Shown: positions 1,985 to 47,076 of the stretch, piece after piece
Layout: each line of letters opens with the position of its first letter
Numbering within the stretch: position 1 is the first letter of the stretch
Virus record (IMG/VR): IMGVR_UViG_3300023179_000041
Span: 32,001 to 96,000 of that record
Reading direction: 5' to 3' (one strand)
Source: a virus
DNA length: 64,000 bases
The notes under the pieces: generated by a model
What the model was told of the DNA's origin: nothing
What the model saw: the letters and a program-made list of their open reading frames with translations, nothing else
Database searches by the model: none
Program-made: the position numbers and the translations under genes

Positions 1985-2662
1985 ATGGCTTTCACACCAA
2001 TTACAGTTACCGGCACCTACCTTGAGAGCGGTAGTGGTGAGCCTGCGAGCGGTCGCATTTCTTTCCTGCTTACTTCCCCGATGAGACAGCCGAGTACCAA
2101 TACGACTATCTCCCCGTCTCAGGTAACTGCCACCCTCGATGAAAACGGGGAATTCTCAGTCATTCTTTATGCGACTAATGACAGCGGAACAGTTCCGCAG
2201 GGCGTGACCTATGAAGTAACAGAACGACTTCGCGGAGCGGCACTAAACAAGTACTTCATTTCTATTGATAAAGATGCCCCTGGCGGGGCCGTCGACCTTG
2301 CTGACCTGGTTCCAAATATCGACCCAGTTGTACAGATTAACTATGCGACAGTTGAATATGTCGATGACGCTGTTGCCGGATTTAACTCTGCAGCCGAGAT
2401 TGGCTTCACCCCAACGTCAGAAATTACATCGACGAATGTGCAAACCGCCATTGAGGAATTGCGAACCCGTTCTAGATATGTCCATAACCAACCGTCAGCA
2501 TCGGATACATGGAATATCACGCACAATATGCGCTTTTACCCGAATGTCAGCATCGTCGACACTGCTCTCAGTAAGGTCGTCGGAGAGGTCACATATCTGT
2601 CAGAAAATGCTTTGACGGTGACCTTCTCACACTCTTTCGCTGGAAAGGCGTATCTTTCATAG
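1985..2662 (+). CDS. Virion structural protein (fibre-associated)
   Basis: N-terminal VTGTYL...ATLDENGEFSVIL domain; C-terminal WNITHNM..YPNVSIVD domain typical of phage fibre modules. Confidence 0.55.
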   Translation: MAFTPITVTGTYLESGSGEPASGRISFLLTSPMRQPSTNTTISPSQVTATLDENGEFSVILYATNDSGTVPQGVTYEVTERLRGAALNKYFISIDKDAPGGAVDLADLVPNIDPVVQINYATVEYVDDAVAGFNSAAEIGFTPTSEITSTNVQTAIEELRTRSRYVHNQPSASDTWNITHNMRFYPNVSIVDTALSKVVGEVTYLSENALTVTFSHSFAGKAYLS

Positions 2663-2685
2663 GAGGAGTCTGGAGGTAGACCGGC

Positions 2686-4203: not shown

Positions 4204-4656
4204 ATGACACGATTTGTTGGCACGCCATTACGCGGCATTGAGTTTTCCAGTCCAAGCGACGAATCATTCTCAACGCGCGTAAATCTTGATGCACATGCGA
4301 GAATTCGCATTGATGCTGGCGGGCGGATTACATGGTCTTCTGGTTCGGCCGCTGGCGATACCAATCTTTACCGAACAAGTGCAAACACTCTCTATACAGA
4401 TGACGTATTCCAGGCCGCTCTTGGGTTGGTCACAGTCACATCTCTTGGCGCTCCAGTTTCTTCACTGCCAGATGGGGCGCTTGCGGTTGACACAACCAAC
4501 GACAAATTTTATTTCAGGTCAAACTCTGCTTGGCAAGAAGTTGGCGGTGCAGGTTTGTTATCTGGAGACGTAGATGGTGGTATTCTTTCGCCTGAGATTC
4601 ACGAAGCAGAAGTAACAAATTACGTATTGGTCGGTTTTGATGGAGGAACACTGTAA
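4204..4656 (+). CDS. Small fibre-associated structural protein
   Basis: [28 protein letters not shown] motifs; ends DGG. Confidence 0.55.
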
Positions 4657-7600: not shown

Positions 7601-10600
7601 TGACTCCTACACCCCAGAGCCGTCCAACCCGATTGACACTGGTCATGCTTCTTATTCGCCAGCCCCCGTCGTTGCTGAAACATTTGAGAGCACGGTTACA
7701 ACAGGTACTGCACCATTCACTGTTGCCTCGACAACGGAAGTAACAAATCTCCACGCTGACACTGCGTCGAGTCTGCACACTGCCCGAGCCATCAGCCTTG
7801 CTGGCGACCTGAGTGGTTCAGTATCGTTTGACGGAAGCGGCGATGTAACTCTTACAGCAACCGTCGAGCCAAACTCGGTTGCCCTCGGCACGGACACCAC
7901 TGGCAACTACATGGTTGACCTTGCCGAAGGTACTGGTGTCACGATTATTCATACCCCTGGAGAAGGCTCCACCGCTTCTGTATCGATTGGTCAAAGCGTC
8001 GCGACAACCGCTTCGGTGACATTTGCTCATGTTTCTGCTGATGTAACTGGAAACCTGACTGGCGATGTTGCGGGCAATGCCGATACGGCTTCAAGCCTTG
8101 AAACAGCGAGGGCAATTTCGCTTGCTGGAGACTTGTCTGGTTCGGTCTCATTTGACGGTTCCGGCGATGTAACCCTTACCGCAACGATTGGGGCAAACAG
8201 CGTAGCCCTCGGTACGGACACGACTGGAAACTACGTCAATGACATCACGGCCGGTACTGGCGTCACAGTTACACACACCCCAGCAGAAGGTTCCAGCCCG
8301 ACAATCGCAATCGGCCAAAGCGTCGCAACATCGGCTTCTCCGCAATTTGCGTCAGTTACAGCGACCGGAACCCCAGGTTTGATTCTAAGTAATTCGAGTG
8401 GTGACGAAGGTGGTGAATTGCTTTTGTCCAAACCAGCAACAAATACATCAATTGCTGGAACTGGTGTAACTATTGATGTTTATCAAAATAAACTGCGCTT
8501 CTTCGAACAGGGCGGCTCTGCTCGTGGAGCATATATCGATATCACCGGGATGGGTGGTGCAGCCTCTACGCCATTGGCGGTTGGTCAGAATGTTGAAACA
8601 AGCGCATCTGTCCAGTTCGCACAACTGACCACAACTGGGAACGTAACAATCGGTGGTGACCTAACCGTAAATGGCACAACAACTACGGTAAATACCGAGA
8701 CAATTAACCTTGCTGATAATCAGATTGTCCTGAACAGCAACGAGACAAGTGCGCCGTCTCAAAATGCCGGGATTGAAATTGAGCGTGGCACATCGGCAAA
8801 TGTTGCACTCCGCTGGAACGAAACAAGCGATAAGTGGGAAATCACAGAAAATGGAACCACTTACTATGACATTGCGACAACCTTTTACGTCGATGGTCAG
8901 TCAATCACAGCGCTTGATGAAATCGGCGATGTCAACATCACATCAGCAGCGTCTGGGGATTTCCTCAAGTGGAACGGCACCGCATGGGTTAACGATGCCA
9001 TAAATCTCGGCACCGACACAACAGGCAACTATATGGTCGATGTATCGGCGGGAACTGGGATAAGCGTCTCTCATACGCAAGGCGAGGGTTCGACGGCTTC
9101 GGTTTCGCTTAACGCAACACTTGATGATTTGTCCAACGTAAGTGCATCCGCCCCTTCTGATGGTCAATTCCTCAAGTACGTCACCGCATCAAGCGCGTGG
9201 GTACCAGCAGCAATCCCAACCATAAACAATCTTGACGATGTTGGCGATGTAACGATTACATCAGCGGCAAATGGCCAATTCCTTAAGTGGAATGGCACGG
9301 CATGGGTCAACGATGCAATTGACTTGGGCACCGATACCACTGGCAACTACATGTCTGATGTTACCGCTGGTACTGGTATCACAATTACGCATACGCCTGG
9401 AGAGGGCTCAAATGCGACGATAGCAGTAACCGCCAACACGTATCAGCCGCTCGATTCGGAACTCACTGCTCTTGCTGGCTTAACGAGTGCAGCAGATAAG
9501 TTGCCGTACTTCACTGGTTCTGGAACTGCCGCATTGACAGACATTACGTCTGCTGCGCGCAGCATTCTTGATGATACGTCAACAACGGCAATCCGAACAA
9601 CGCTCGGCGTTGGAACTGGCGATAGCCCAACGTTTGCTGGGGCAACAATTGATGCTGTTCGAGTTGGAGTTACGGCAGCAGGAGAAATAGACACAACGAC
9701 TGGAAATCTAACAATTGATTCTGCTGGCGGAACAGTTACTGTCGATGACAATCTTGTTGTTTCAGGAGACTTAACAGTCAATGGAACCACCACAACTGTA
9801 AATACAGCGACACTAACCGTCTCTGACAACATTGTTGTTCTCAACAATGATGTAACTGGAACTCCAACCGAAAATGCTGGCGTAGAAGTCGAGCGTGGAA
9901 CTTCCGCAAACGTTCTAATCCGATGGAACGAAGGAACCGATAAATGGGAAGCCACGAACGACGGAACCAATTTCGGAAATCTCGTAACCACTGGCGACAG
10001 CGGAACAGTCACGTCCACGATGATTGCCGACGGCACCATCGTTAACGCGGACATAAACGCTTCGGCGGCAATCGCCCTTTCCAAACTTGCGTCTGGAACA
10101 TCTGGTCAGATAATTGTTGCAAACTCTTCAGGTGTTCCGACATGGGTATCAGAAACTGGTGATGTCACCATCTCTGATACTGGTGTAACTGCAATCGCCT
10201 CTGGCGCAATAGTTAATGCTGACATAAATTCTTCTGCGGCAATTGACTACAGCAAACTTGCCAATATAACTGCTGGAAGCGTTCTTATTGGTAATGCATC
10301 CAACGTGCCCACCGCCACCGCGCTGAGCGGAGATATCACAGTTAGTTCGTCTGGCGTAACAGCAATTGCGTCCGGTGTAATTGTCGACGCGGATATTAAT
10401 TCTTCTGCGGCAATCAGCCAGTCAAAGATTGCGACATCTACTACACAGGTTTGGGGAACTGGGTCGATTGAACTTGGTCACGCGACGGACACGACAATTA
10501 CAAGAGTTTCGGCTGGAAAGATTGCAGTCGAAGGCGTTACCGTAGCCACTACAACGGATACGAGAGATGTTCTAGTAAGGTTCTACATGGAGGTTATCTG

Positions 10601-10601
10601 A
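4656..10601 (+). CDS. Long modular fibre protein (1981 aa) with Mtd-N/hyaluronidase-N-like anchor
   Basis: [11 protein letters not shown]...[21 protein letters not shown]-terminus; repeated [36 protein letters not shown] and [12 protein letters not shown] modules. Confidence 0.85.
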
Positions 10602-10602
10602 T

Positions 10603-10965
10603 ATGCCATTGACACAAAAGAGACTGGTCGGACCAACTCAGTTGACTACGACGACAAGCACTGTTCTCTATACGGTTCCCCAAAGCACGACCACTATCGT
10701 CAAGCAAATAGTGCTGTGCAATACCACGGCGAGCGCTGTGACGGTAACTATGGTCCTCAAGCCGCTGAACGTTGCCCAAGCATCATCGCAGAACTTTTTT
10801 AATACCTTGTCAATTGCAGCAAACGAAACGTTGACGTTCCAAACCAACATGGTTTTGACCAATAATGGAAGCACGGCGAACGCTACCAATAGCGACCAAA
10901 TCATTGGTTCAGCGAGCGCAAATACGGCAATCAATGCATTTATTTATGGCGTAGAAGAGAGTTAG
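10603..10965 (+). CDS. Small virion protein (fibre adaptor)
   Basis: LTTTTSTVLYTVP...TIVKQIVLCN beta-sandwich pattern frequent downstream of long fibres. Confidence 0.55.
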   Translation: MPLTQKRLVGPTQLTTTTSTVLYTVPQSTTTIVKQIVLCNTTASAVTVTMVLKPLNVAQASSQNFFNTLSIAANETLTFQTNMVLTNNGSTANATNSDQIIGSASANTAINAFIYGVEES

Positions 10966-10967
10966 TC

Positions 10968-11699
10968 GTGGCTGGGTTTGTTCGGATGAACAACTCCACC
11001 ATTTCAACGGCGGAGTCAACTTCAAGCGTGTCTGGTTCGTTATTGAACCTCGCAACGTACTTGAATTTGCCTGACCCCGTATACGGAACTGGCGCCGACG
11101 GCGACGTCACCATAAGCGCGGACACGACCCTGACATCCGACAAGAACTACAAAAACCTCACGTTGGGCGCATTTACGCTCAATCCTGGTGGATACAGAAT
11201 ATTCGTTCAAAATGTCCTCACCTTGGCGAACGGCTCAAGAATTGGGTACACGACAGGATTCACCACCGCTGGAACGCTCGCCCAGGGTGGAGCAACAAAT
11301 ACTGCCGTTACCCACAGTCTTGGCGGCTCAAGTGGTGCACAAACGGCGACGGCGCCAACAGCGGCACTTGGCGGGTCTGAGTACTACAGACAGCCCTTAC
11401 AGGCGATTCGTGGTTGGGCGGTAACGGCTTCCTCTACGACTCCGACATTCCTTCGCGGCGGCGCCGGCGGTTCAAGCGGCGCTGGCGGCGGGGTCGTTCT
11501 TATTTCTGCTCGCTACATCACGGTATCTTCTGGCTCTGCCACATTCAGCGCTCCAGGAACTTCTGGTTCTGGCGGTGGCGGCGGCGGAGTTATCTTAATT
11601 GTCTCATCTGCGTCGGTACTCAATAATGGAGTAACTACTGATGTAACTGGAGGCACTGGGGCGTCGGCGGGCAACGTCTACTACATGCAGGTCGCATAA
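10968..11699 (+). CDS. Glycine-rich adhesin-like virion protein
   Basis: YGTGADGDVTIS...YKNLTL and GGAGG...GGGGGGVILI motifs. Confidence 0.6.
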   Translation: MAGFVRMNNSTISTAESTSSVSGSLLNLATYLNLPDPVYGTGADGDVTISADTTLTSDKNYKNLTLGAFTLNPGGYRIFVQNVLTLANGSRIGYTTGFTTAGTLAQGGATNTAVTHSLGGSSGAQTATAPTAALGGSEYYRQPLQAIRGWAVTASSTTPTFLRGGAGGSSGAGGGVVLISARYITVSSGSATFSAPGTSGSGGGGGGVILIVSSASVLNNGVTTDVTGGTGASAGNVYYMQVA

Positions 11700-11701
11700 T
11701 C

Positions 11702-12736
11702 ATGCCAAACATACAAAGATTCGGGCAGGATAGAGCGCCAGTTCAAAAAACTGGCACGGACAAAATCTTTGGTACTGGAGTCGACGGCACCGTAACCATC
11801 TCGACAAACACGTCTCTTTCTAGGGATATGTATTACGCAAACTTGACGGTCAATTCGAGCGTCACCTTGTTTACCAACGGATTCAAAATATTCGTCAGTG
11901 AAACGCTAACGAACAACGGAACCATTGGAATGCCCAAGGGCACTGCTCAAACTACTGCCGTACTGGCTGGAACAGTCCTAACAAGAGTTAATTCAACCGC
12001 ATCGTGGACGGCAAACCAGTCAATAGATTCGGCAAACAGTTCTGGAAACTTGGCATTTAGTAACACAAAGGGATTTGAAAATATTCTTGAGGGCGCATAT
12101 ACCACTGGCTCTGCCGTCAACAGATTCTTTGCTGGAGCACAAGGTGCAGCAGGTACCGCAAATCCAGGGAATGCTGGGAGCGGAGGAAACTCAACTGCGG
12201 GGAATCCTGGAACTGCTGGCTCTGCTGGTCTTGGTGGCGGAACTGTGGCAGTGATTGCCAAGACGATTTCTGGTTCTGGAACTTTTATCAGCGAAGGAAC
12301 AGACGGTACTTCTGGGTCAAACGGTAACCCTGGAACAACTCAACCTGGAACATCGTTCCACAACCCTGGTGGTCATGCCCATGCCCCAGCACATGCTCCT
12401 GGCCACAATCCTGGTTCGCACAATCCAGAACAATCATTTCACCACCCCGCTGGATGTTGCGCGTGGAACGGCGCACACCACCATGACCATCATAGTCACC
12501 ATCACGTAAACCAAAATGCTTGGCACCACCCAGGAAACCAATTCCATTATCAATATCACTATTCGCACTCACATCCAGGGAATCCAGGGCATAATCCTAC
12601 ATACCCAGGTGGCACTGGTGGCAGTGGAAATTCTGGAAACCCAGGAAAAGGTGGGAGTCTTTATGTGTTGACACGTGGTATTTCTACACATATAGCCTCT
12701 GGGAACATGACATACGTAGAAGACCTAGACGATTAA
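11702..12736 (+). CDS. Glycine-rich adhesin-like protein with His-rich insert (paralog of preceding gene)
   Basis: FGTGVDGTVTIS...YYANLTV shared with preceding gene; 23 His in 78 residues (12359-12592) flanked by GNPG repeats. Confidence 0.65.
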   Translation: MPNIQRFGQDRAPVQKTGTDKIFGTGVDGTVTISTNTSLSRDMYYANLTVNSSVTLFTNGFKIFVSETLTNNGTIGMPKGTAQTTAVLAGTVLTRVNSTASWTANQSIDSANSSGNLAFSNTKGFENILEGAYTTGSAVNRFFAGAQGAAGTANPGNAGSGGNSTAGNPGTAGSAGLGGGTVAVIAKTISGSGTFISEGTDGTSGSNGNPGTTQPGTSFHNPGGHAHAPAHAPGHNPGSHNPEQSFHHPAGCCAWNGAHHHDHHSHHHVNQNAWHHPGNQFHYQYHYSHSHPGNPGHNPTYPGGTGGSGNSGNPGKGGSLYVLTRGISTHIASGNMTYVEDLDD

Positions 12737-12805
12737 AGAGCGATGTAGTGTATGATTGAAGACAGACACATAAGAGAACAACTCGGATTTACAGAGGTGA
12801 TTCAA

Positions 12806-13051
12806 ATGATTGATTTTTCTACTCTTCCAGCAGAAGAGGTTTCTTCGGTAGTTGCCAGAGTCAAAAACGACATTACTGCCGCTATTTATGAAGGAGTGTT
12901 AAGACTTGGTCTTGACCCTGCTTCGTTTGACGAGTCAACTTTTGCTAGTTCATTTGACGAAACGGATGTTGATTACGGTTTAAAGTCGGTTATTGTCAAT
13001 TCAATCAATCGCCTCAACTGGGTAAATAACTGGGCTGCTGAAAACCTTTAG
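12806..13051 (+). CDS. Small acidic hypothetical protein (possible fibre chaperone)
   Basis: GAGGTG RBS before ATG 12806; position after adhesin. Confidence 0.5.
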   Translation: MIDFSTLPAEEVSSVVARVKNDITAAIYEGVLRLGLDPASFDESTFASSFDETDVDYGLKSVIVNSINRLNWVNNWAAENL

Positions 13052-13087
13052 CCGCTAGGGCGCCTTGCGCCTTGATAGTATCCGTAT

Positions 13088-13702
13088 ATGAACTTCATAG
13101 AACATTTTTCGTGTCTTCGTGAATACACGTCGGTCTATTCGCCTGGTGATTTTGTAGAACTTGTTGAGCAAGAATGCAAACAAGATTGGGGATATTTGTC
13201 TTGGTATCAAACCCCAATTGGCGGAAACAAGAACAACTTGACAAATGTGGTTGACATTCACCGAACTTCACTCGGTTGCGAGATGTCCCCAATATCAATG
13301 CCGGTGGAGAATGTTTCCCAAGAAAGATTAATACCGCTTGCTAAAAAATGGATGCACATAAGGGAAAGAATCGATAAGTGCATTTGGCATTACCGCAATA
13401 CGTATTCCCTCAACCTGAGCGCTGACGAGGGTTTCAGGTTGTTGAAATACGGACGTGGAGCAGAATATAAGGGCCACGTAGACCACGCCCCAACGAACGC
13501 AAGAGTATTAAGTCTCGTGAGTTTTGTTAATGATGGATTTACTGGAGGCGAACTTGTTTTCCCTCTTCTGGACGTTAAAGTGACGCCGACCGCTGGCTCT
13601 GTGCTTTTGTTCCCGTCTAATTTCCCTTACTACCACTATGCCGCCCCAGTTGGCAAAAGTGACGAATCAATAAAGTATTCATTAGTTACATGGTTGCAGT
13701 GA
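13088..13702 (+). CDS. 2OG-Fe(II) oxygenase, prolyl-hydroxylase-like
   Basis: HVD...RVLS...FTGGEL.FP...LFPSNFPYYH...KYSLVTW. Confidence 0.85.
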   Translation: MNFIEHFSCLREYTSVYSPGDFVELVEQECKQDWGYLSWYQTPIGGNKNNLTNVVDIHRTSLGCEMSPISMPVENVSQERLIPLAKKWMHIRERIDKCIWHYRNTYSLNLSADEGFRLLKYGRGAEYKGHVDHAPTNARVLSLVSFVNDGFTGGELVFPLLDVKVTPTAGSVLLFPSNFPYYHYAAPVGKSDESIKYSLVTWLQ

Positions 13703-13708
13703 ACAACG

Positions 13709-15163
13709 ATGAAGATAGTAATTGTTGGCTCTGGAACATCGGGATTAGTATCGGCAATAATCCTTAGGGGGCTATTCCCCTTGTGGGATATCACTGTTGT
13801 CTCATCAAAAGACATTGGCATTATTGGGGTCGGCGAAGGCTCAACAGAGCATTGGAGACTTTATTTCCAAGACAAATATAACATCCCTGTTTCGGAGATG
13901 GTCACAGCCTGTCGCGCAACGCACAAATACGGAATCAAATTTGAAAACTGGACAAAACATACGCCAAATTATTTCCACAGCGTAAGTGCTGGAGAGTGGG
14001 GTCGCGCGTATTTCCCTGCAAATTATGCGTTCTGTTTGGAGAACAACAAACTATTGACCAATTCTATGGTGACTCATCTTCACGACAATACGATTGTGTT
14101 GAACGAAGGCAACCCACATCATGCCGTAAATCAATTTCATTTTGACACTTTCAAACTTAATGAGTATTTGACAAGCGTCTGCAAGTTGCGAAATGTATCT
14201 TTTATCGATGGAAAGGTATCGCGAGTCACAAGAAACTCAGATAATGGTTTCATAGAGTCGATTGACGTGGATTCTTTCGGCTTGATAAATGGTGATTTTT
14301 TTATTGATGCAAGTGGGTTTCGCAGAGTTTTAATAAGTGAACTCGTTGATTCTGATAAAGACTTTGTTTCATATAGAAAATACGTTCCTTGCGATTCTGC
14401 CGCCGTATTCCCAACGCCACGTGACGAGAGTGGCGAAATTCGCCCATACACAAGGGCAAGAGCGATGCCGAATGGTTGGATGTGGGAAATCCCGACCCAA
14501 GACAGACGAGGCAATGGATATGTATTCGCCTCAGATTTTTGTTCAGAAGAGCAAGCAGTTAGAGAGATTTCGGAAGCCCACGGAAAAGATATAGAACCAG
14601 CAAAAATCATAAAGTTTAAGTCTGGATACCATAAAACCGCTTTCGCATTTAATTGTGTTGCTGTGGGCTTGTCCTCGTCGTTTGTTGAACCGCTGGAAGC
14701 AACTGCGATATCAACATCAATTCAACAAGCGCGAATGCTTGCCTCAGTTCTGCCGACGTTTTCTATTGGCTCAACTGCAACTGTGTCTCAATATAATAAA
14801 CAGTACGAATCACTGTTGGAAAACATAATCACCATGGTGGCAATGCACTACATTTCCGACAGAGATGATACCGAAATGTGGAGAGCACAACAAGGTCTTG
14901 AGAAGCCGCCCATGCTTGAACACTTGATATCCCTGTGGAAAGAAAGACTTCCAGAAGCATATGATGTCCCAATATTTGGGTATGAATTATTTCAGAACGC
15001 ACACTTTTGGCATGTCGCTCAAGGACAAGGTCTATTGAACCCAGATTTGGCAACTATCCAACTTGACGCATTTGCCGTACGTAGAGAAGCAGCAAAAAAC
15101 ATTGCAAATCTAAAAAACGCCGCACTTGGGTCAAAAACCGTTAAGCATCATGCGATTTTTTAA
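13709..15163 (+). CDS. Flavin-dependent (tryptophan-halogenase family) halogenase
   Basis: GSGTSG FAD motif, GVGEGS, THKYGIKF (catalytic Lys position), FIDASG, WMWEIP, FVEPLEAT. Confidence 0.9.
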   Translation: MKIVIVGSGTSGLVSAIILRGLFPLWDITVVSSKDIGIIGVGEGSTEHWRLYFQDKYNIPVSEMVTACRATHKYGIKFENWTKHTPNYFHSVSAGEWGRAYFPANYAFCLENNKLLTNSMVTHLHDNTIVLNEGNPHHAVNQFHFDTFKLNEYLTSVCKLRNVSFIDGKVSRVTRNSDNGFIESIDVDSFGLINGDFFIDASGFRRVLISELVDSDKDFVSYRKYVPCDSAAVFPTPRDESGEIRPYTRARAMPNGWMWEIPTQDRRGNGYVFASDFCSEEQAVREISEAHGKDIEPAKIIKFKSGYHKTAFAFNCVAVGLSSSFVEPLEATAISTSIQQARMLASVLPTFSIGSTATVSQYNKQYESLLENIITMVAMHYISDRDDTEMWRAQQGLEKPPMLEHLISLWKERLPEAYDVPIFGYELFQNAHFWHVAQGQGLLNPDLATIQLDAFAVRREAAKNIANLKNAALGSKTVKHHAIF

Positions 15164-16013
15164 TCGCAACAAAAAGAGCAGGGTAGTTCAAGGTTCTGCA
15201 TGGGAAGATGTACCAATCCCCAAACCCAATGAACTTTTTGTTGTTCCAGCAACGAATGTATTGCTACACCCAAAATTGTCCGTTTATGAGAATAGGTCAA
15301 AAACACCAGACTGGTACAAAAAGGCAATAAGCGGTGAGTCAAGTATCAAACGATGCTATGGGCTGGCTGATTATCTTCGAACTGGCTACACAATCCCATT
15401 GTGGGCAAAATTGGACATACGACCGCCGTTGAATAAATTACAACCCAAATGGGAAGCAAAATACGATTTTTCACACGGCAACGTTTCCCATGATTTGCAG
15501 TTTGTTGATGAACTGGTCGACGATGAATTTTTTTCTATGAATTCATTGTTTCATAATCAGTTTGGTCAAGACCAAGTTGGTGAGTGTCCAGTGTCTCGCA
15601 TAAAAACACGACCAAATTCTGCATATCTCAAATTGACAAATCCGTGGTTATTCAAAACCGCACCAGGGTATTCAACGCTATTTATAGCACCGCAGTGGAG
15701 TCCTGACCCAAGATATCAGGTCATGTCTGGAGTTGTAAATACCGATTATTACCATCATGCAAATGTTGTTTTAAACATTATTGCAAACGAAGAGTTTTCT
15801 ATTGAAGAGGGAACTCCGATGCTTCACGCAATCCCATTCAAGCGAGAGGACGGAATAAAAAGCAGTTCATTAATTAGGGGAGATGAAAGACTACACAAAA
15901 CCCTAGATGGGCTTGGATTTTTGAATGTTAGGCGTCCGACTGACTGGAAGGGAATGTACAAGCGCGAACAATCTCAAATAGATAAGATGATTAAGGAACA
16001 AAACAGTGGATAG
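15150..16013 (+). CDS. Conserved phage protein (possible dUTPase-like/beta-clip fold) of oxygenase clusters
   Basis: IKRC...GYTIPLW...KLTNPWLFKTAPGYSTLF...GVVNTD...GTPMLHAIPFKRE. Confidence 0.55.
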   Translation: MRFFNRNKKSRVVQGSAWEDVPIPKPNELFVVPATNVLLHPKLSVYENRSKTPDWYKKAISGESSIKRCYGLADYLRTGYTIPLWAKLDIRPPLNKLQPKWEAKYDFSHGNVSHDLQFVDELVDDEFFSMNSLFHNQFGQDQVGECPVSRIKTRPNSAYLKLTNPWLFKTAPGYSTLFIAPQWSPDPRYQVMSGVVNTDYYHHANVVLNIIANEEFSIEEGTPMLHAIPFKREDGIKSSSLIRGDERLHKTLDGLGFLNVRRPTDWKGMYKREQSQIDKMIKEQNSG

Positions 16014-16473
16014 ATACGTTTTTTGCCCCAATGAATCCATGATGGATGAGGCTGTTTTGCTCGCCAAAGAGTGGTCATTGCCAATATTAAACGGTGATTC
16101 GGAGCGGTCAAAAAATGTTCATTTTGATAGAAATATTGTTTCCGTTGTTCTGATACCGATATTTAACGGGTTCGAGAATTGTCCAGAAGTTCTGGAGCCA
16201 AACATGGCATACATATTTAGATACAGAAATGATTTCATAGATTGCGGAGAGTTGGCAGCGGTTCTGTCAACAAAAAATCTAGGACTAAATAAAAGTTCTT
16301 TTTTACCGATACGAATGGTGTCGCCGCATGAAATAGAAATACTCGTTACAATCTCAAGTCTTGGAGAGTACTCAGTTATGATTGCTAAAGATAAAGAGGT
16401 TTTTGCTACTCACGATTTTGCGGTTTTGCCAGATGGAAGTTCCTCTATTGAGGACTTAAGCGCGTATGATTAA
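16006..16473 (+). CDS. Hypothetical protein
   Basis: 155-aa ORF overlapping both neighbours by a few bases. Confidence 0.55.
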   Translation: MDRYVFCPNESMMDEAVLLAKEWSLPILNGDSERSKNVHFDRNIVSVVLIPIFNGFENCPEVLEPNMAYIFRYRNDFIDCGELAAVLSTKNLGLNKSSFLPIRMVSPHEIEILVTISSLGEYSVMIAKDKEVFATHDFAVLPDGSSSIEDLSAYD

Positions 16474-17170
16474 TTTCCCCAGTGGCAGGTCTACCTGCAT
16501 AGCATATATAGATAACGCAATATCTGTTGACGATTGCAACTTTCTGATAGCAGAATGCACTAAAAATTATGACAAACTATTTTCCCCTGGCCCGACCATA
16601 GGTGGCGTAAACACAAGAATCAAAAACTCGATGGATTTTGGTTTGTCCGAAGAATCTGACAAGATTTATCAAACTGGCAACAATAATTTTTTGAAAGCAA
16701 CGCAATTTGTCCTAGATGGTCTTGGAACCGCAATGGCTCTATATTTGGAAGAGTTCAAAGAATTGCAGCACTCAACAGCATTAACGAGTACTGGTTTTAG
16801 ACTTCAGCACTATCCAAGAAAACAGGGTTATTACAGGCGGCATCATGATGGCGCGCCATGGGACCCGGACCCGATAAACAGCAGAGTGCTTGGGGTGGTC
16901 ATATACTTAAACACCATTAAGCATGGTGGTGGGACAGAATTCCCAGAACAAAATTGCGAGATAGAGGCAAAGGCTGGAAGAATCGCTCTTTTCCCAGCAA
17001 ATTGGACACATCCACACGCGGGGAAAGTTCCAATATCATGCGACAAGTGGATTATCAGCACATTTATTGTCTGCGATAGAATACATTCAGAACAATCAGT
17101 CGTTGTTCAGCCAGAGCAAATTAAATCGTATGATGACATTGAAAAACTTTTAGCGAATGAGGAAAAGTGA
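16466..17170 (+). CDS. 2OG-Fe(II) oxygenase
   Basis: HHD...RVLGVVIYLN...GGGTEF...LFPANWTHPHAG...KWIIST. Confidence 0.85.
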   Translation: MINFPSGRSTCIAYIDNAISVDDCNFLIAECTKNYDKLFSPGPTIGGVNTRIKNSMDFGLSEESDKIYQTGNNNFLKATQFVLDGLGTAMALYLEEFKELQHSTALTSTGFRLQHYPRKQGYYRRHHDGAPWDPDPINSRVLGVVIYLNTIKHGGGTEFPEQNCEIEAKAGRIALFPANWTHPHAGKVPISCDKWIISTFIVCDRIHSEQSVVVQPEQIKSYDDIEKLLANEEK

Positions 17171-17898
17171 AACAAACTCCACTTACCATTTATTGGGCAC
17201 CATACTGGCCGCTGTCTTTAAAATATGACCTAAATCATATATTTCCTTCACCAAAATCTCTGTATGACGAGTGGTTTGAAAAATATACGCCGCAGCGACG
17301 ACCAGATGTTTACTTCAACTGCCCTGCGTCTACAAGAAAAATGAAACGAACATTTTCGTTTGTCAACATTGTAGACACACACACCAGATTTAATTCAGAT
17401 GGGTCAATCGAATATTCACGACCAGAGAAATATCAACTACTGAATGAACTAATTCACCAACCGACTATAGAAAATCACCGACTGATAAATGTTCAGTATT
17501 CGTTGCTTGTTTTTTGTGAGGAGTCTGTAGTTGCCTCAATGGAGTCCCCGTTTTTTCATAAAACAGAAGCATTCAAATATGGAGCCATAGTGCCTGGGGA
17601 GTTTGATGTTGGTCAATGGTACCGCCCATTAAATGCGGAGTTTCAATTATGGGAAAACGTAGACGAACTATATCTTGCTGCTAATGAGCCGCTCTTCTAT
17701 CTTGAATTTTTGACCGATAGACCAGTAGTTATGCAAAGGTATCAAGTCACGAAAAGACTAAGCACAATTGCAAGTTCCCTAATTCATGTAAATCCTCTTG
17801 GGAAATTTGCGGGTCTTTCTGAAAAATATCGCATCTTTCAACAATCGCGACTTAGAAGTCAGGTATTGAAAGAAATCAAGAACAATTTGGTTGATTGA
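17167..17898 (+). CDS. Conserved phage protein, probably a distant relative of 15150-16013
   Basis: FNCPA...IVPGEFDVGQWYRPLN...NEPLFYLEF. Confidence 0.55.
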   Translation: MKQTPLTIYWAPYWPLSLKYDLNHIFPSPKSLYDEWFEKYTPQRRPDVYFNCPASTRKMKRTFSFVNIVDTHTRFNSDGSIEYSRPEKYQLLNELIHQPTIENHRLINVQYSLLVFCEESVVASMESPFFHKTEAFKYGAIVPGEFDVGQWYRPLNAEFQLWENVDELYLAANEPLFYLEFLTDRPVVMQRYQVTKRLSTIASSLIHVNPLGKFAGLSEKYRIFQQSRLRSQVLKEIKNNLVD

Positions 17899-17899
17899 A

Positions 17900-18511
17900 A
17901 TGACTATTAAAATAGTTGATTTTTTGTCTGCCGACGAAAGAGCGCGCGTCATTGAGTATGCAATGTGCAGACCGTGGTCAAAAGACAGTTGGGGACGTTT
18001 CACTTGTGACTTTCCTGTTTGGGACGTTCAAAACCTTGACTGGCTGTACGAGAAATCCGCCAATGCGGCATCTGCTGCGTTTGGCGCAGACGGCATTATT
18101 CCGACCTACTACAAATTTTGCAAGTATTCACCGCGTTACGGTATTCCAAGAGTCCCACCACACATAGATGAAAATGCATGCACATATACAGTTGACATAC
18201 AACTTGATTCAAATATTGACTGGTCTATATATATTGATTTTGATGAATATCTCCTTAAGGATGGAGATGCGGTTTTATACATGGGCGAAGACCAACTTCA
18301 TTGGCGCCCAAAATTTCCAACAGATGATGAGTCGGATTCAATCTCAATGCTTTTCATGCATTATGCGCACCAGAATCATTGGTTTTTTGAATATGGACAA
18401 GATTTTATGAGAAATCCAGAACTTCACAATATTTGGGTTCAAAGAATGCAAACTTTGCTTGCCTCGAACAAACACAAAACGATGACAGAAATTGACGACG
18501 GAATATTATGA
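17900..18511 (+). CDS. 2OG-Fe(II) oxygenase-like protein
   Basis: PPHID..CTYT...W.IY...L..GDAVLY.G..QLHWR...MLFMHY. Confidence 0.7.
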   Translation: MTIKIVDFLSADERARVIEYAMCRPWSKDSWGRFTCDFPVWDVQNLDWLYEKSANAASAAFGADGIIPTYYKFCKYSPRYGIPRVPPHIDENACTYTVDIQLDSNIDWSIYIDFDEYLLKDGDAVLYMGEDQLHWRPKFPTDDESDSISMLFMHYAHQNHWFFEYGQDFMRNPELHNIWVQRMQTLLASNKHKTMTEIDDGIL

Positions 18512-18529
18512 ATGTGCTATCATGTTTTC

Positions 18530-18970
18530 ATGAACAAATTTCAACAATTCTTCAGACCAACCACGCAAGATGAATTGGCAGAACTAGCCAAAAAACTAAC
18601 CCCTCCAGACGACATAAGAGACCTAGTTCCGATTCCAGGTAGACCAGAAGACTGGCTATTTTACGGAGTACAAAAGAAAGCACAGTCATTTTTCTCGACG
18701 ATGGCGGCTCAAACCAAAAGGTTTGGGTCTCGTGAATACTGGACAAAGGTCAACGCAATTGAGGCGATATCCTTCACCACGAAGATATCTATCATTTTCC
18801 CTGGTCTTTTATTTGGCAAACAATGGTGGTGGCTGTATCTCTTCGCCCTGGTGTCAAGTGCGGCGCTTGTGGCAACATCAACCATAAAGACTTTACCGAC
18901 GATAATTTGGTTCAATATTATTTGGATTGTTCTAGCCTCACTATCAATCGCAAAGCACTTTATTCAATGA
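18530..18970 (+). CDS. Membrane protein
   Basis: Three hydrophobic C-terminal segments; leaderless start after TGTGCTATCAT. Confidence 0.65.
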   Translation: MNKFQQFFRPTTQDELAELAKKLTPPDDIRDLVPIPGRPEDWLFYGVQKKAQSFFSTMAAQTKRFGSREYWTKVNAIEAISFTTKISIIFPGLLFGKQWWWLYLFALVSSAALVATSTIKTLPTIIWFNIIWIVLASLSIAKHFIQ

Positions 18971-19087
18971 CGCAAGCGGCGGGATACTGATAGAAATTCA
19001 AGACAACTTGGTTGATTAACTACTTGTTTTCGTTGGCGTAATCAAAAGTCTTAAAAATTTGATGCCCTATACGTTACAATTTAGTCA

Positions 19088-20164
19088 ATGAAAATTGGGT
19101 ACATTTCTCAAGATTGGTCAAAGCATAATGGCAATTCTGTTCCAAACGGATGCACTTGGTACAGGTGCATAGTACCCGGCAAGGAAATGAAAAAATTTGG
19201 GGTGCTGACCGAAGTCGGTCTACTCGCAATGACAAGGAGCAATCAAATTGGCGTACAGCGTGTTGACGGAATGAAAGTCTCCGGGTTCGACATAATTGTT
19301 TTCAAATTGGCAATGCACGTGAGCACACTCGCAGCAGTTGATAGGGCAAAGGGAAACGGTCAAAAAATAGTCGTAGATATAGATGATTGGTTTGATGACC
19401 TACCTGATACAAATAGAGCAAAAATTATCACCGACCCAGAGCGAAACCCCTTCAACAACAGAAATATTTATTTTCAAATAATTGAACTTGCGGATGCGCT
19501 TATTTGCTCAACCGATTTTCTTTATCGCTGGTATAAAAACAAATATCCAAATAAATTGGTATTTTTAGTTCGCAACGCCATTGATTTGGATAGGTGGGCC
19601 AAGTACAAGCCACCAAAAGGAAAACCAGTCATCGGATGGATGGGCGCAACGCCCTGGCGTGCACTTGACTTAGAGCAGTTGCGTCCGTTTTTTGGGAATT
19701 TTATAAAACAACACAAACTAACTTTTCATCATGCCGGCCACATAGAGAATGCCGAGCACGCCGCAGACCTTCTTGGCATAGATAGGTCTTTTACTTCAAC
19801 AGAACCGATGCAGCCAATTACAAATCTCCCTTCACTAATGAAAAAATTCAACATTGGGATTGTTCCGCTAAACAATATTGATTTCAATAAGGCCAAGTCA
19901 TATCTGAAGGGGCTTGAGTATGCGGTTGCCGGAATCCCGTTTGTTGCCTCTGACATGTTTGAGTACAGACTCTTATCTGATGCTGGGATTGGTCGAATTG
20001 CAGATTCCCCAGAGCAATGGCAAGCACACATGGAGGCGCTATTGGATTTCAAGACGCGCAATGAAGATGCTAGAATTAATTACGAAATAGCAATATCTGA
20101 ATTCTCAATAGGTTCGCGTGTCAATGAATGGTTGTCAGTATTCAAAAAAATCTTGGAGCAATAG
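19088..20164 (+). CDS. GT-B (GT4-like) glycosyltransferase
   Basis: VVDIDD, IGWMG, IGIVPL..IDFNKAKSYLKGLEYAVAGIPFVAS. Confidence 0.85.
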   Translation: MKIGYISQDWSKHNGNSVPNGCTWYRCIVPGKEMKKFGVLTEVGLLAMTRSNQIGVQRVDGMKVSGFDIIVFKLAMHVSTLAAVDRAKGNGQKIVVDIDDWFDDLPDTNRAKIITDPERNPFNNRNIYFQIIELADALICSTDFLYRWYKNKYPNKLVFLVRNAIDLDRWAKYKPPKGKPVIGWMGATPWRALDLEQLRPFFGNFIKQHKLTFHHAGHIENAEHAADLLGIDRSFTSTEPMQPITNLPSLMKKFNIGIVPLNNIDFNKAKSYLKGLEYAVAGIPFVASDMFEYRLLSDAGIGRIADSPEQWQAHMEALLDFKTRNEDARINYEIAISEFSIGSRVNEWLSVFKKILEQ

Positions 20165-20167
20165 TTC

Positions 20168-21262
20168 ATGGCAAAAATTGAATTCAGCGTTGGTTTTGTT
20201 TCTACCGACTGGTCTCAGGTTGATGGTCAAATAGTGCCAAATGGCTGCACGTGGTACAGATGTATTTTGCCTTCACATGAGTTGCTGAAGTCTGGAATAA
20301 AATCGGCGGTTGGGCTCATTCAAATTCACGAAAATAGAGGTTTTGGCGTTGGCGGCATCGGGGTGCAAAAAGTAGGTACACATAAAATCATTGTGATGAA
20401 AGTAATAATGCATAAGTTGGTTCGCGACCATATTAAAAAAGCACAAAAGTACGGCCAAAAAATAGTTGTAGATATCGACGATTTGTTTGATGAGATTCAT
20501 GAAAGCAATATGGCTCACGGCTCGACAGACCCAACAAAAAACAAAGACAACAATCGAGTCATTTATAGTGAAATTATTGAGGCCTCTGACGCGCTTATTT
20601 GCTCGACCCCATTCATAGCGGAACATTACAAAGCAATGTTCCCAAGAAAACCTATATTTGTAATCAGGAATTCAATTGATGCCGGTAGATGGATACCATT
20701 TAACTCCGTTGAGAGGCAGCCAATTATCGGCTGGCTAGGCGCAACTCCATGGCGCTCATTAGACCTTGAGCAATTATCTGGTTTTTTCAACGAGTATCTT
20801 GAGTCTAGAAATGCAAAATTTCATCATTCGGGATACTTAAAGTGGGCCCCGCTCGCCCATAACAAATTGGGGATTAAGGATGCAAAGCGCGTAACGGTGT
20901 CTCCAATGGTGCCACTTATGGAGTTGCCACAAACATACGCAAACTTTGATATTGGAATTGTGCCGTTAAACGACATACCTTTCAATCGAGCAAAATCCTT
21001 CATTAAGGGCCTTGAATACGCGGCGGCTGGGATTCCATTTGTTGCTTCTGCACTGCCCGAATATGAATATCTTTCTGCTTGCGGCATAGGAACGATTGCG
21101 TCAAATAAAAGAGAATGGTTTGATGCCCTTGATTCATTGCTGGACGCAGGCAAAAGAGAGAAAGAAAGTTATAGGTGTAGGAAGATAGTTGAGGCCGATT
21201 TTTCTATTCAGGCGCACCGTAAAGAGTGGATTTCCGTGTTTAGGGAGATTGACAAGTTGTAG
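20168..21262 (+). CDS. GT-B (GT4-like) glycosyltransferase, tandem paralog
   Basis: Same motifs as upstream gene (PNGCTWYRC, GATPWR.LDLEQL, KGLEYAAAGIPFVAS). Confidence 0.85.
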   Translation: MAKIEFSVGFVSTDWSQVDGQIVPNGCTWYRCILPSHELLKSGIKSAVGLIQIHENRGFGVGGIGVQKVGTHKIIVMKVIMHKLVRDHIKKAQKYGQKIVVDIDDLFDEIHESNMAHGSTDPTKNKDNNRVIYSEIIEASDALICSTPFIAEHYKAMFPRKPIFVIRNSIDAGRWIPFNSVERQPIIGWLGATPWRSLDLEQLSGFFNEYLESRNAKFHHSGYLKWAPLAHNKLGIKDAKRVTVSPMVPLMELPQTYANFDIGIVPLNDIPFNRAKSFIKGLEYAAAGIPFVASALPEYEYLSACGIGTIASNKREWFDALDSLLDAGKREKESYRCRKIVEADFSIQAHRKEWISVFREIDKL

Positions 21263-28988: not shown

Positions 28989-29036
28989 GGCTTTTCGCAA
29001 ATTTGACATTTCTGCGGGTTGTGGAAAAATATTTAT

Positions 29037-46871: not shown

Positions 46872-47076
46872 CGCAAACACTCCAGCGTCACGCACTCGAC
46901 CCCAGCGAGTGCCAGATGTTGAGAAGTCAAGAAATCCATCATCTCTGCACGTCAAGCGGAATCTTCACCGAAGAAGAAGATGTCGTATTCAAAATTTCTG
47001 TTTTGATGTTGGAAGAACGACATGGCTGGTCGTATGGTGGTGGCGAACAACTCCACAAAAAGAAAGAAGAAGAACA

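What the first reader, a model, noticed from the sequence alone, without database searches (positions are those of the whole stretch)
11702..18511. His-rich adhesin followed by a tailoring-enzyme cluster: possible post-translational modification system for a virion fibre tip
Seen: the last fibre gene carries a Pro/Asn/His/Trp-rich insert (NPG, HNP, HHP, CCAWNG, NAWHH). Directly downstream are a small acidic ORF, three different 2OG-Fe(II) oxygenases, a flavin-dependent halogenase with intact catalytic Lys and WxWxIP motifs, and two related proteins of unknown function. Established: 2OG oxygenases hydroxylate Pro/Asn/His in proteins; some flavin halogenases act on peptidyl Trp; such genes are common beside tail-fibre genes of aquatic phages with unknown substrates. 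Inference: the layout resembles a RiPP cluster in which the precursor is a structural protein, so the receptor-binding tip may be hydroxylated/halogenated to tune host range, metal binding or protease resistance.
Basis: partly seen in the sequence, partly recalled or inferred. Interest (0 to 1): 0.8.

Follow-up and report, generated by a model that had tools for sequence, protein, structure and literature searches.

The report
Halogenase-oxygenase cassette beside His-rich phage fibre protein
An uncultured lake phage, probably of Actinobacteria, carries a portable gene block: a histidine-packed surface-type protein that in every related virus I could check comes with a halogenase, a prolyl-hydroxylase-type oxygenase and a dUTPase-shaped protein, so that protein is a concrete but unproven candidate target of viral halogenases.

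Summary
The 344-aa protein (11702-12736) models as a beta-solenoid carrying a disordered loop with 23 His in 86 residues. Downstream lie two paralogous P4H-type 2OG oxygenases, a third oxygenase-like protein of the Syn9 gp54 family, and a flavin halogenase with all catalytic motifs. The "two related unknowns" are unrelated; one has a dUTPase fold.

The main result is comparative. Among 24 distinct viral loci picked only by the upstream Gly-rich paralog, all 24 carry the halogenase, the oxygenase and the dUTPase-fold gene. Among 32 picked only by the halogenase, 30 carry the Gly/His-rich pair. The linkage survives inversion, reordering and duplication. It also recurs in a 203-kb myovirus that shares almost nothing else with this siphovirus.

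Every homolog has a His-rich loop, but half of the loops lack Trp, so Trp halogenation is not the conserved chemistry.

The enzyme array itself is already published for cyanophage Syn9 (Iyer et al. 2010) and was read there as secondary-metabolite synthesis. This scan has noted the same module in at least 13 other genomes.

Verdict: a real, mobile, functionally coupled cassette. Modification of the fibre is the best-supported reading but has not been demonstrated.

The parts
4656..10601 (+). Giant 1981-aa repeat fibre protein with an Mtd_N domain. It is context, directly upstream of the cassette.
   Evidence: ORF; Pfam Mtd_N E 1.1e-11.
10603..10965 (+). 120-aa small protein (p120). In most loci it is the first gene of the conserved trio.
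   Evidence: phrog_20100 E 3e-9. Present in 24 of 24 loci picked by the Gly-rich partner.
10968..11699 (+). 243-aa Gly-rich protein (gly243), a paralog of the His-rich protein without the His loop.
   Evidence: The N-terminal motif is shared with 11702-12736 (BLASTP E 7e-11). Alignment A1 shows conserved GGG-VVI-AARYI strands. No Pfam or PDB match.
11702..12736 (+). 344-aa Gly/His-rich protein: a beta-solenoid core (about residues 20-220 and 296-344) carrying a disordered His-rich loop.
   Evidence: AF2 mean pLDDT 77, core above 85, loop below 50. VIA matches are generic beta-helices, Z at most 6.4. 188 metagenomic homologs.
12344..12601 (+). The His-rich hypervariable loop, residues 215-300 (23 His, 11 Pro, 10 Gly, 9 Asn, 2 Trp, 2 Cys).
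   Evidence: The same position is His-rich in all homologs (24% His pooled over 51 loops), while its length and sequence vary.
12752..13051 (+). 99-aa acidic ORF (pI 4.2). Accessory: found only in close relatives.
   Evidence: Matches in only a minority of loci.
13088..13702 (+). oxyA, a P4H-type 2OG-Fe(II) oxygenase. Core member of the cassette.
   Evidence: PF13640 E 1.8e-11; phrog_61. Present in 24 of 24 and 30 of 32 loci.
13709..15163 (+). Flavin-dependent halogenase. Core member of the cassette.
   Evidence: PF04820 E 5e-97. PDB 5hy5 1e-57 and VirX1 6qgm 2.4e-39. Motifs conserved.
15126..16013 (+). unk295, a dUTPase-fold protein (DUF6065-like) with an invariant Cys77. Core member, directly beside the halogenase in most loci.
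   Evidence: AF2 pLDDT 87. Foldseek dUTPases E 3e-4. VIA Z 9.2, with the top 22 rows all from the dUTPase/dCTP-deaminase superfamily. 15 of 38 relatives hit PF00692 and 14 of 38 hit DUF6065. It matches Syn9 gp43 (1e-18).
16006..16473 (+). unk155, a 155-aa protein of unknown fold. Frequent accessory.
   Evidence: No family match. Present in about half of the loci.
16466..17170 (+). oxyB, a second P4H-type 2OG-Fe(II) oxygenase and paralog of oxyA. Frequent accessory.
   Evidence: PF13640 E 2.5e-10. hhalign probability 100% against oxyA. It matches Syn9 gp50 (2.6e-25).
17167..17898 (+). unk243, a 243-aa protein of unknown function (phrog_17480). Rare accessory, unrelated to unk295.
17891..18511 (+). 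oxyC, an oxygenase-like protein of the Syn9 gp54 family with an invariant HxD...H. Accessory.
   Evidence: phrog_2954. Invariant columns in A3. hmmsearch against Syn9 gp54 gives 1e-10. No Pfam or PDB match.
18512..18970 (+). Small membrane protein. The conserved part is residues about 62-151. Homologs are 93-100 aa, so the real start may be an internal Met near 18701.
   Evidence: 55-77% identity across loci, the highest of any cassette gene. No family match.
19088..21262 (+). Two paralogous GT-B glycosyltransferases. Variable accessory genes at the edge of the island.
   Evidence: phrog_7162 E about 1e-33; weak Pfam Glyco_trans_1_4 matches below the family cutoff. Present in only a few relatives.

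Best explanation
This is a self-contained, horizontally mobile virion-appendage cassette. Its core has six genes: a small protein (10603-10965), two paralogous Gly-rich beta-solenoid proteins (10968-11699 and the His-rich 11702-12736), a P4H-type 2OG-Fe(II) oxygenase, a flavin-dependent halogenase and a dUTPase-fold Cys protein.

Shown:
- The genes are co-directional and tightly packed, with 4-8 nt overlaps.
- They are inherited, rearranged, duplicated and transferred together.

Inferred mechanism:
- During late infection the enzymes modify the exposed, disordered His/Asn/Pro/Gly-rich loop of the solenoid protein, and possibly the Gly-rich strands of its paralog.
- The oxygenases would hydroxylate Pro, Asn or His in motifs such as HNPG.
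- The halogenase, with the dUTPase-fold protein as its usual neighbour and likely partner, would halogenate electron-rich side chains. The only universally available one is His, with Tyr in most loops; Trp is not conserved.
- The modified loop would then serve on the particle as a metal-binding or adhesive surface.
- Accessory oxygenases, the small membrane protein and the glycosyltransferases would vary the chemistry between phages.
For: 1. Reciprocal co-occurrence. 24 of 24 distinct loci chosen only by the Gly-rich paralog, each with at least 7 kb on both sides, carry the halogenase, oxyA, unk295 and a His-rich homolog. 30 of 32 chosen only by the halogenase carry the Gly/His-rich pair.

2. 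Linkage survives rearrangement.
- Enzymes upstream of the trio: L044, L066, L075, L167.
- Enzyme block inverted: L058, L107.
- Enzymes internally reordered: L122, L125, L150.

3. Two diverged complete copies (36-52% identity), each with its own trio and enzymes, sit on one 55-kb contig.

4. Transfer between backbones.
- G001 (203 kb, 96% complete) has a tail sheath and different portal and capsid families.
- It shares with this phage essentially only the cassette (35-65% identity), a ribonucleotide reductase and a few short fragments.
- There the cassette again lies between the capsid and tail genes, behind fibre-like genes.

5. Cultured cyanophage Syn9 shows the same layout. Fibre genes and Gly-rich proteins (gp36 is 35% Gly; also gp38 and gp39) are followed by gp41 and gp42 (halogenases), gp43 (unk295 homolog), gp50 (oxyA/B homolog) and gp54 (oxyC homolog).

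6. The His-rich loop is a family-wide feature (11-108 His per protein). It is predicted to be disordered and exposed from a confident solenoid core.

7. The enzymes look active. The halogenase motifs are conserved across the 80 aligned homologs. The oxygenases are of the protein prolyl-hydroxylase type.

8. VirX1, the one characterised viral halogenase, has an unusually open active site that accepts bulky substrates. No natural product is listed for it (PMC8407142).

9. Halogenated His exists in nature, for example 5-bromohistidine in sponge skeletons (PMC8659048).
Against: - No chemical evidence of any modification exists for this or any related phage.
- Conserved adjacency can also come from co-regulation, or from a shared small-molecule product.
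- Flavin halogenases are not known to act on His.
- Trp is absent from about half of the loops.
- The dUTPase-fold core member has no obvious role in protein tailoring. Its hafunavirus homologs lie next to thymidylate synthase and DNA polymerase.
- In Syn9 the neighbouring Gly-rich proteins are not His-rich and are not detectably homologous to gly243 or his344.
- Some related halogenases occur without the trio: L022, L081, S-PM2 and S-H38.
- The enzyme island has lower G+C (0.40-0.42) than the fibre genes (about 0.50).
- Only the best 80 of 340 Gly-rich-paralog relatives were examined.
Confidence: 0.5

Rival explanations
1. The enzymes make a halogenated, hydroxylated small molecule derived from an amino acid or peptide, as Iyer et al. 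proposed for the Syn9 array. The Gly/His-rich proteins are linked only because the product is loaded onto or used with them (for example a metal chelator), or because all are late genes.
For: - The same enzyme set (halogenases, several 2OGFeDOs, a dUTPase-fold Cys protein) was read as secondary-metabolite synthesis in PMC2938197 and PMC7824862.
- Most characterised flavin halogenases and many 2OG oxygenases act on free or carrier-bound small molecules.
- The closest full-length PDB matches include enzymes deposited only as 'tryptophan halogenase superfamily' or 'putative tryptophan halogenase' (6frl, 6y1w).
- A His-rich, metal-binding loop could hold a chelator.
Against: - The cassette holds no peptide synthetase, carrier protein, ligase or exporter of a known family.
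- The core is only three enzymes, yet it always travels with the two solenoid proteins, even when duplicated or moved to another phage backbone.
- A virulent phage gains little from an antibiotic-like product made late in infection (inference).
Confidence: 0.25
2. The enzymes act on nucleotides, nucleic acid or host envelope polymers. The dUTPase-fold protein binds a nucleotide or nucleotide-sugar, the oxygenases and halogenase modify it, and the neighbouring glycosyltransferases use it.
For: - unk295 has a dUTPase/dCTP-deaminase fold, and 15 of 38 relatives match PF00692.
- Its hafunavirus homologs sit beside thymidylate synthase, DNA polymerase and a nucleotide kinase.
- The 106-kb record has no canonical dUTPase.
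- Glycosyltransferases and a poly-Thr membrane protein follow the island.
Against: - By eye, the consensus has N or H where dUTPase motif 3 has its catalytic Asp, and no PRSS-type phosphate-binding motif. This is my reading, not a formal alignment.
- The window's own copy does not reach PF00692 at E 1.
- The oxygenases are of the P4H type, not the AlkB or TET/JBP type.
- The glycosyltransferases are present in only a few relatives.
- The cassette sits in virion modules, not replication modules, in three backbones.
Confidence: 0.1
3. There is no functional link. The end of the fibre module is a recombination hotspot where auxiliary genes accumulate, and the association reflects common descent.
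For: - The enzyme island has a distinct G+C content.
- Accessory content varies widely between relatives.
- Some halogenases occur elsewhere without the trio.
Against: - A hotspot predicts variable content, yet the same three enzymes are present in 24 of 24 loci.
- The whole unit recurs in a myovirus that shares almost no other gene with this phage.
- The unit is duplicated as a whole.
- It stays adjacent after inversion and reordering.
Confidence: 0.1

Closest known systems
Syn9/Syn10-type cyanophage array of tandem dioxygenases, tryptophan halogenases and a dUTPase-fold Cys protein (Syn9 gp41-gp54; Iyer, Abhiman, de Souza, Aravind 2010, PMC2938197)
   Same: - Same enzyme families: halogenase, oxyA/B = gp50, oxyC = gp54, unk295 = gp43.
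- Same adjacency of halogenase and dUTPase-fold gene.
- Also placed directly behind fibre genes and Gly-rich proteins.
   Different: - Here the array is reduced to 3 core plus 3-4 accessory enzymes.
- It sits in a siphovirus with WhiB (a probable actinophage), not a T4-like cyanophage.
- It is tied to a His-rich solenoid protein that has no detectable homolog in Syn9 or in any cultured phage record.
- The published reading is secondary-metabolite synthesis, not protein tailoring.
VirX1, the flavin-dependent halogenase of cyanophage Syn10 (PDB 6qgm)
   Same: Homologous viral halogenase (phmmer E 2.4e-39) with the same motif set. It has an open active site and no natural product listed (PMC8407142).
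   Different: The relationship is distant: the window enzyme scores better against bacterial Trp 5/6/7-halogenases (1e-57). Halide preference and substrate are untested here.
Peptide-modifying flavin halogenases of RiPP pathways (MibH, SrpI, ChlH; recalled from memory, not tested here)
   Same: A halogenase encoded beside a ribosomally made substrate together with other tailoring enzymes.
   Different: Those act on Trp in short precursor peptides with leader or recognition sequences. Here the candidate substrate is a 344-aa folded structural-type protein, and Trp is not conserved.
His-based metal sites of phage fibres and spikes (T4 gp37 HxH iron sites; T-even/S16 gp38 polyglycine adhesins, PDB 6f45)
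   Same: Gly-rich scaffold, HxH motifs (up to 20 per protein), and hypervariable segments between Gly-rich motifs. A weak structural match to S16 gp38 (Z 4.7).
   Different: The His region is predicted disordered rather than a trimeric needle. The match to gp38 is no better than to generic beta-helices. There is no sequence homology.
Gly/His-rich metal-hardened structural proteins such as Nereis jaw protein Nvjp-1 (PMC9465683), and halogenated His/Tyr in invertebrate skeletons (PMC8659048)
   Same: Similar composition (Gly plus His). Halogenated aromatic residues, including bromo-His, co-occur with structural material.
   Different: This is an analogy only: unrelated organisms, no homology, and the enzymology there is unknown.

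Membership tests
Flavin-dependent (tryptophan-type) halogenase, Pfam PF04820 | Full-length match to the family profile | tested here: met
   E 5.1e-97, 326 bits, profile positions 1-445 of 458. 30 PDB halogenases match at E of 1e-39 or better.
Flavin-dependent (tryptophan-type) halogenase, Pfam PF04820 | GxGxxG flavin site, WxWxIP, catalytic Lys (A-T-H-K) and Glu (EPLE) | tested here: met
   GSGTSG at residue 7, ATHKYGIKF at 70, GWMWEIP at 256, FVEPLEAT at 325. The K and the E are present in all listed variants among the 80 aligned homologs. A minority have WxFxIP.
Flavin-dependent (tryptophan-type) halogenase, Pfam PF04820 | Halogenating activity and free L-Trp as substrate | not testable with these tools
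   No assay was possible. Trp-binding residues were not mapped.
2OG-Fe(II) oxygenase, P4H-like (Pfam PF13640) | Profile match above the curated cutoff, with HxD...H and a distal basic residue | tested here: met
   oxyA scores 45.3 bits and oxyB 41.6 bits against a cutoff of 27. HVD...H...K and HHD...H...K are visible in the translations.
2OG-Fe(II) oxygenase (third gene, 17891-18511) | Profile match to a curated 2OG oxygenase family | tested here: inconclusive
   No Pfam or PDB sequence match and no profile relation to oxyA/B. But H91, D93 and H137 are invariant, and it matches Syn9 gp54 at 1e-10, which PMC2938197 classes as a 2OGFeDO. Its fold was not predicted.
dUTPase / dCTP deaminase superfamily (for 15126-16013) | The superfamily fold | tested here: met
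   The top 22 VIA rows are all from the superfamily, Z up to 9.2 over 129 residues. Foldseek probability 1.0. 15 of 38 relatives hit PF00692, best E 7.6e-10.
dUTPase / dCTP deaminase superfamily (for 15126-16013) | Canonical catalytic motifs (motif 2 PRSS, motif 3 catalytic Asp, motif 5 P-loop-like) | tested here: inconclusive
   Judged by eye from the A2 consensus only: VV(H/N)TDxYH in place of IDxDY, APGWS in place of PRSS, and a GFG remnant near the C-terminus. No formal alignment to a dUTPase was made. The window copy itself does not reach PF00692.
Syn9-type dioxygenase/halogenase/dUTPase-fold array (Iyer et al. 2010) | Co-encoded halogenase, several unrelated 2OGFeDOs and the dUTPase-fold protein with a conserved Cys | tested here: met
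   hmmsearch of the cassette profiles against Syn9 gives gp43 1e-18, gp50 2.6e-25 and gp54 1e-10. C77 is invariant in A2. The paper was read.
RiPP biosynthetic gene cluster | Short precursor peptide with leader and core, next to its tailoring enzymes | tested here: not met
   The candidate substrate is a 344-aa protein with a confident folded core. No short precursor or recognition-element protein was found. Only the adjacency of tailoring enzymes is shared.
Phage tail-fibre tip / adhesin | Homology or fold match to a known receptor-binding protein, or position at the distal tail genes | tested here: inconclusive
   No Pfam, PHROG or phage-record match. Fold matches are generic beta-helices, Z at most 6.4, including Mtd (5.9) and S16 gp38 (4.7). 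The gene lies between the tail-terminator and major-tail-protein genes, far from the tape-measure and minor tail genes.

The most novel reading that the evidence does not exclude
Phage particles carry an enzymatically halogenated and hydroxylated histidine-rich appendage. The conserved target of this clade of viral flavin halogenases would be protein-bound His (and Tyr) in a disordered loop displayed from a beta-solenoid, with a dUTPase-fold protein as an obligatory partner. This would be the first halogenation of a virion structural protein, the first flavin halogenase acting on His, and the natural role of VirX1-type enzymes.
Probability: 0.3. Interest if true: 0.85.

Novelty: new variant of a known kind. 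Interest (0 to 1): 0.6.

Why it matters
- Viral halogenase and 2OG-oxygenase genes are widespread in aquatic phages, and their natural substrates have been unknown since 2005-2010. VirX1 is used as a biocatalyst without a known biological role.
- This cassette names a specific, testable candidate substrate.
- The enzyme-protein set moves as a unit between unrelated phages of lakes, and in a looser form occurs in marine cyanophages.
- If the loop is modified, that would add a new chemistry to virion surfaces, with consequences for host recognition, metal binding and particle stability. It would also supply new protein-directed halogenases.

Tried and rejected
- Near-identity DNA search of the region in cultured-phage records found nothing. 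Protein searches with the His-rich protein and its Gly-rich paralog in the same records found nothing.
- Profile search of the Gly-rich paralog against PDB sequences gave only noise. Foldseek of the His-rich model gave nothing at E of 0.001 or better.
- Pfam and PDB sequence searches gave nothing usable for oxyC, unk243, unk155 and the small membrane protein.
- The promoter and terminator scan gave no more sites than shuffled sequence, so it is no evidence for or against one operon.
- No RNA holder was listed for the stretch.
- The tape-measure protein as a backbone marker matched nothing in five related records. This is uninformative by itself. Capsid and portal proteins were used instead, and a whole-record tblastn.
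- Literature searches found no paper linking phage halogenases to fibre proteins, and none mentioning DUF6065.
- Co-variation of accessory enzymes with loop motifs: HNP-rich loops cluster in the close relatives that also carry oxyC, unk243 and acid99. This is confounded by shared ancestry, so I draw no conclusion.

Full report
**What is in the sequence**

The window is bases 32001-96000 of a 106-kb IMG/VR virus record, estimated 79% complete. Upstream lie the portal, prohead protease and major capsid genes. Within the window the order is as follows:

- head-tail adaptor, Neck1 and tail terminator (190-1982)
- fibre-like proteins (1985-4143)
- a 1981-aa repeat fibre with an Mtd_N domain (4656-10601)
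- the genes of the finding
- two glycosyltransferases
- a poly-Thr membrane protein
- an SNF2 helicase
- a lysin
- only then the major tail protein (27687-28244), the tape measure (29019-33938) and the minor tail proteins

A WhiB gene at 46909-47631 points to an actinobacterial host. The related loci come from metagenome viral contigs; that most are freshwater lakes is my inference, backed only by earlier notes of this scan. The phage therefore looks like a siphovirus. The 'fibre' block sits between the neck and tail-tube genes, not at the tail tip.

**The genes of the finding**

Residues 215-300 of the 344-aa protein hold 23 His, 11 Pro, 10 Gly and 9 Asn.
- Two of the oxygenases are Pfam 2OG-FeII_Oxy_3, the prolyl-4-hydroxylase type. 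They are paralogs of each other.
- The third (17891-18511) matches no curated family and is not profile-related to the other two. It has an invariant HxD...H. It belongs to the family of Syn9 gp54, which Iyer et al. class as a classical 2OG dioxygenase (PMC2938197).
- The halogenase is a full-length member of PF04820 (E 5e-97). GxGxxG, the catalytic Lys, WxWxIP and the Glu are conserved, with minor variants, across the 80 aligned homologs.
- The 295-aa protein next to the halogenase folds confidently (pLDDT 87). It has the dUTPase/dCTP-deaminase fold: VIA Z 9.2, with the 22 best rows all from that superfamily, and Foldseek probability 1.0. In addition, 15 of 38 relatives hit PF00692, 14 of 38 hit DUF6065, and Cys77 is invariant.
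- By eye, its consensus lacks the canonical catalytic Asp and the phosphate-binding motif. I did not align it formally to a dUTPase.

**The His-rich protein**

- It shares an N-terminal motif and a Gly-rich strand pattern with the preceding 243-aa gene.
- AlphaFold, with 48 sequences, gives a confident core (residues about 20-220 and 296-344, pLDDT mostly above 85) and a disordered loop at 222-295 (pLDDT below 50).
- The core matches only generic single-chain beta-helices: bactofilin Z 6.4, autotransporter passengers, Mtd 5.9 and S16 gp38 4.7. All are below the level at which a specific relationship can be claimed.
- The picture is therefore a beta-solenoid scaffold displaying a long flexible His-rich loop. 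'Adhesin' remains an inference.

**The comparative result**

I collected 80 viral loci by the halogenase alone. Independently, I collected 77 new loci by an alignment of the 243-aa Gly-rich paralog alone. I then mapped all cassette proteins onto them.

| Loci counted (distinct anchors, at least 7 kb on both sides) | Result |
|---|---|
| 24 picked by the Gly-rich paralog | 24 of 24 carry the halogenase, oxyA, the dUTPase-fold gene, the small 120-aa gene and a His-rich homolog |
| 32 picked by the halogenase | 30 of 32 carry the Gly/His-rich pair; the exceptions are L022 and L081 |

- Gene order is not fixed. The enzymes lie upstream of the trio in L044, L066, L075 and L167. They are inverted in L058 and L107. 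They are internally reordered in L122, L125 and L150.
- One 55-kb contig carries two complete copies, 36-52% identical, each with its own trio and enzymes.
- In most arrangements, and in Syn9, the halogenase and the dUTPase-fold gene are direct neighbours.

**Is this only common descent?**

- Two carriers (G003, G005) share this phage's capsid (55-59% identity) and portal (43-46%).
- Two others (G001, 203 kb and 96% complete; G002, 180 kb) do not share them.
- A tblastn of every ORF of 80 aa or more of this genome against those two records found the cassette genes at 35-65% identity, a ribonucleotide reductase at about 35%, and only a few short fragments besides.
- G001 has a tail sheath and different portal and capsid PHROG families, so it is a myovirus.
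- In G001 the cassette again lies between the capsid and tail genes, directly behind fibre or head-decoration-like genes.
- The cassette, structural proteins and enzymes together, has therefore moved between unrelated phages as one piece.

**Syn9 and the literature**

The order in the cultured cyanophage Syn9 is:

| Syn9 genes | What they are |
|---|---|
| gp32-34 | fibres |
| gp36, gp38, gp39 | Gly-rich proteins (gp36 is 35% Gly) |
| gp41, gp42 | halogenases |
| gp43 | unk295 homolog (1e-18) |
| gp50 | oxyA/B homolog |
| gp54 | oxyC homolog |

- Iyer et al. [quoted passage not shown] They proposed organohalogen secondary metabolites. Iyer et al. 2021 repeated a metabolite or capsule reading for P-SSM2-type clusters.
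- Other reviews call the phage halogenase function unknown or speculative.
- I found no paper that links these enzymes to fibre proteins.
- The Syn9 Gly-rich proteins are not His-rich and are not detectably homologous to the proteins here. Syn9 therefore supports the general layout, not the His-specific idea.
- This scan has recorded the same module in at least 13 other genomes with similar verdicts. Those notes gave me the lead to the 2010 paper, which I then checked myself.

**What the loop says about chemistry**

- All 77 distinct homologs are His-rich: 11-108 His per protein, with 5-19 His in the densest 40-residue window. The loop varies in length (about 30-200 residues) and in sequence.
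- Pooled loop composition is 24% His, 12% Gly, 9% Pro, 9% Ala, 8% Asn, 4% Tyr and 0.8% Trp.
- 26 of 51 loops have no Trp, and 4 have neither Trp nor Tyr.
- If the halogenase acts on this loop, the conserved nucleophile is therefore His, with Tyr in most loops. It is not Trp.
- His halogenation is unprecedented for flavin halogenases, although bromo-His occurs in nature (PMC8659048).
- VirX1 has an open site that takes bulky substrates (PMC8407142).
- P4H-type oxygenases fit the abundant X-Pro-Gly and Asn-Pro motifs, but that is inference.

**Against the tailoring reading**

- Nothing has been measured.
- The dUTPase fold suggests a nucleotide ligand, and its hafunavirus homologs lie beside thymidylate synthase and DNA polymerase.
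- Some halogenases occur without the trio.
- The island's G+C is 0.40-0.42, against about 0.50 for the fibre genes.
- I examined only the best 80 of 340 relatives of the Gly-rich paralog.

**How I weigh the readings**

| Reading | Weight |
|---|---|
| Functional coupling of the cassette | about 0.8 |
| Protein tailoring of the Gly/His-rich proteins | about 0.5 |
| A small-molecule product | 0.25 |
| A nucleotide or envelope target | 0.1 |
| Mere linkage | 0.1 |

**Verdict**

The enzyme array is known from cyanophages. Its tight, mobile association with a His-rich solenoid protein in probable actinophages is a new variant, and it gives a directly testable hypothesis for the natural substrate of viral halogenases.

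Noticed in passing
window 18512-18970: A small membrane protein is the most conserved gene of the whole cassette (55-77% identity where the enzymes are 30-55%). Homologs are 93-100 aa with about three hydrophobic segments, so the window's 152-aa call probably starts too early (internal Met near 18701). It matches no family in Pfam or PHROGs.
   Followed up: partly
window 1985-27601: About 25 kb (fibres, cassette, two glycosyltransferases, a poly-Thr membrane protein, an SNF2 helicase and a lysin) is inserted between the tail-terminator gene (1593-1982) and the major tail protein gene (27687-28244). That is an unusual place for non-structural genes in a siphovirus.
   Followed up: partly
window 12001-20000: The enzyme island has the lowest G+C of the window (0.40-0.46), against 0.49-0.52 for the fibre genes just upstream. 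Gly codons explain part of this. The rest may reflect a separate origin.
   Followed up: no
L019 and L058 (one contig, IMGVR_UViG_3300021376_000077): Two diverged complete cassettes (36-52% identity between copies) sit on one 55-kb viral contig. One has the enzyme block in inverted orientation.
   Followed up: partly
L161 6001-6513; L162 6001-6708 (hafunaviruses HSTV-2, HCTV-6): Homologs of the dUTPase-fold protein occur in haloarchaeal tailed viruses without any halogenase. They lie next to thymidylate synthase, DNA polymerase and a nucleotide kinase, at the border with the tail-fibre genes.
   Followed up: partly
L125 (His-rich ORF downstream of 10771): One homolog has 108 His in 689 residues with 20 HxH motifs. 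Another (L137) is 1042 aa. The loop can expand greatly.
   Followed up: no
window 4656-10601: The 1981-aa fibre begins with an Mtd_N (major tropism determinant) domain and is built of long internal repeats. I did not look for a diversity-generating retroelement.
   Followed up: no
L022 9242-11359 and L024: Here a related halogenase (51-54% identity) is preceded by the 243-aa unknown (unk243) and has no oxyA, no dUTPase-fold gene and no Gly/His-rich trio within the sequence held for each locus (about 10 kb each side in L022). This may be a second, different halogenase context in related phages.
   Followed up: no
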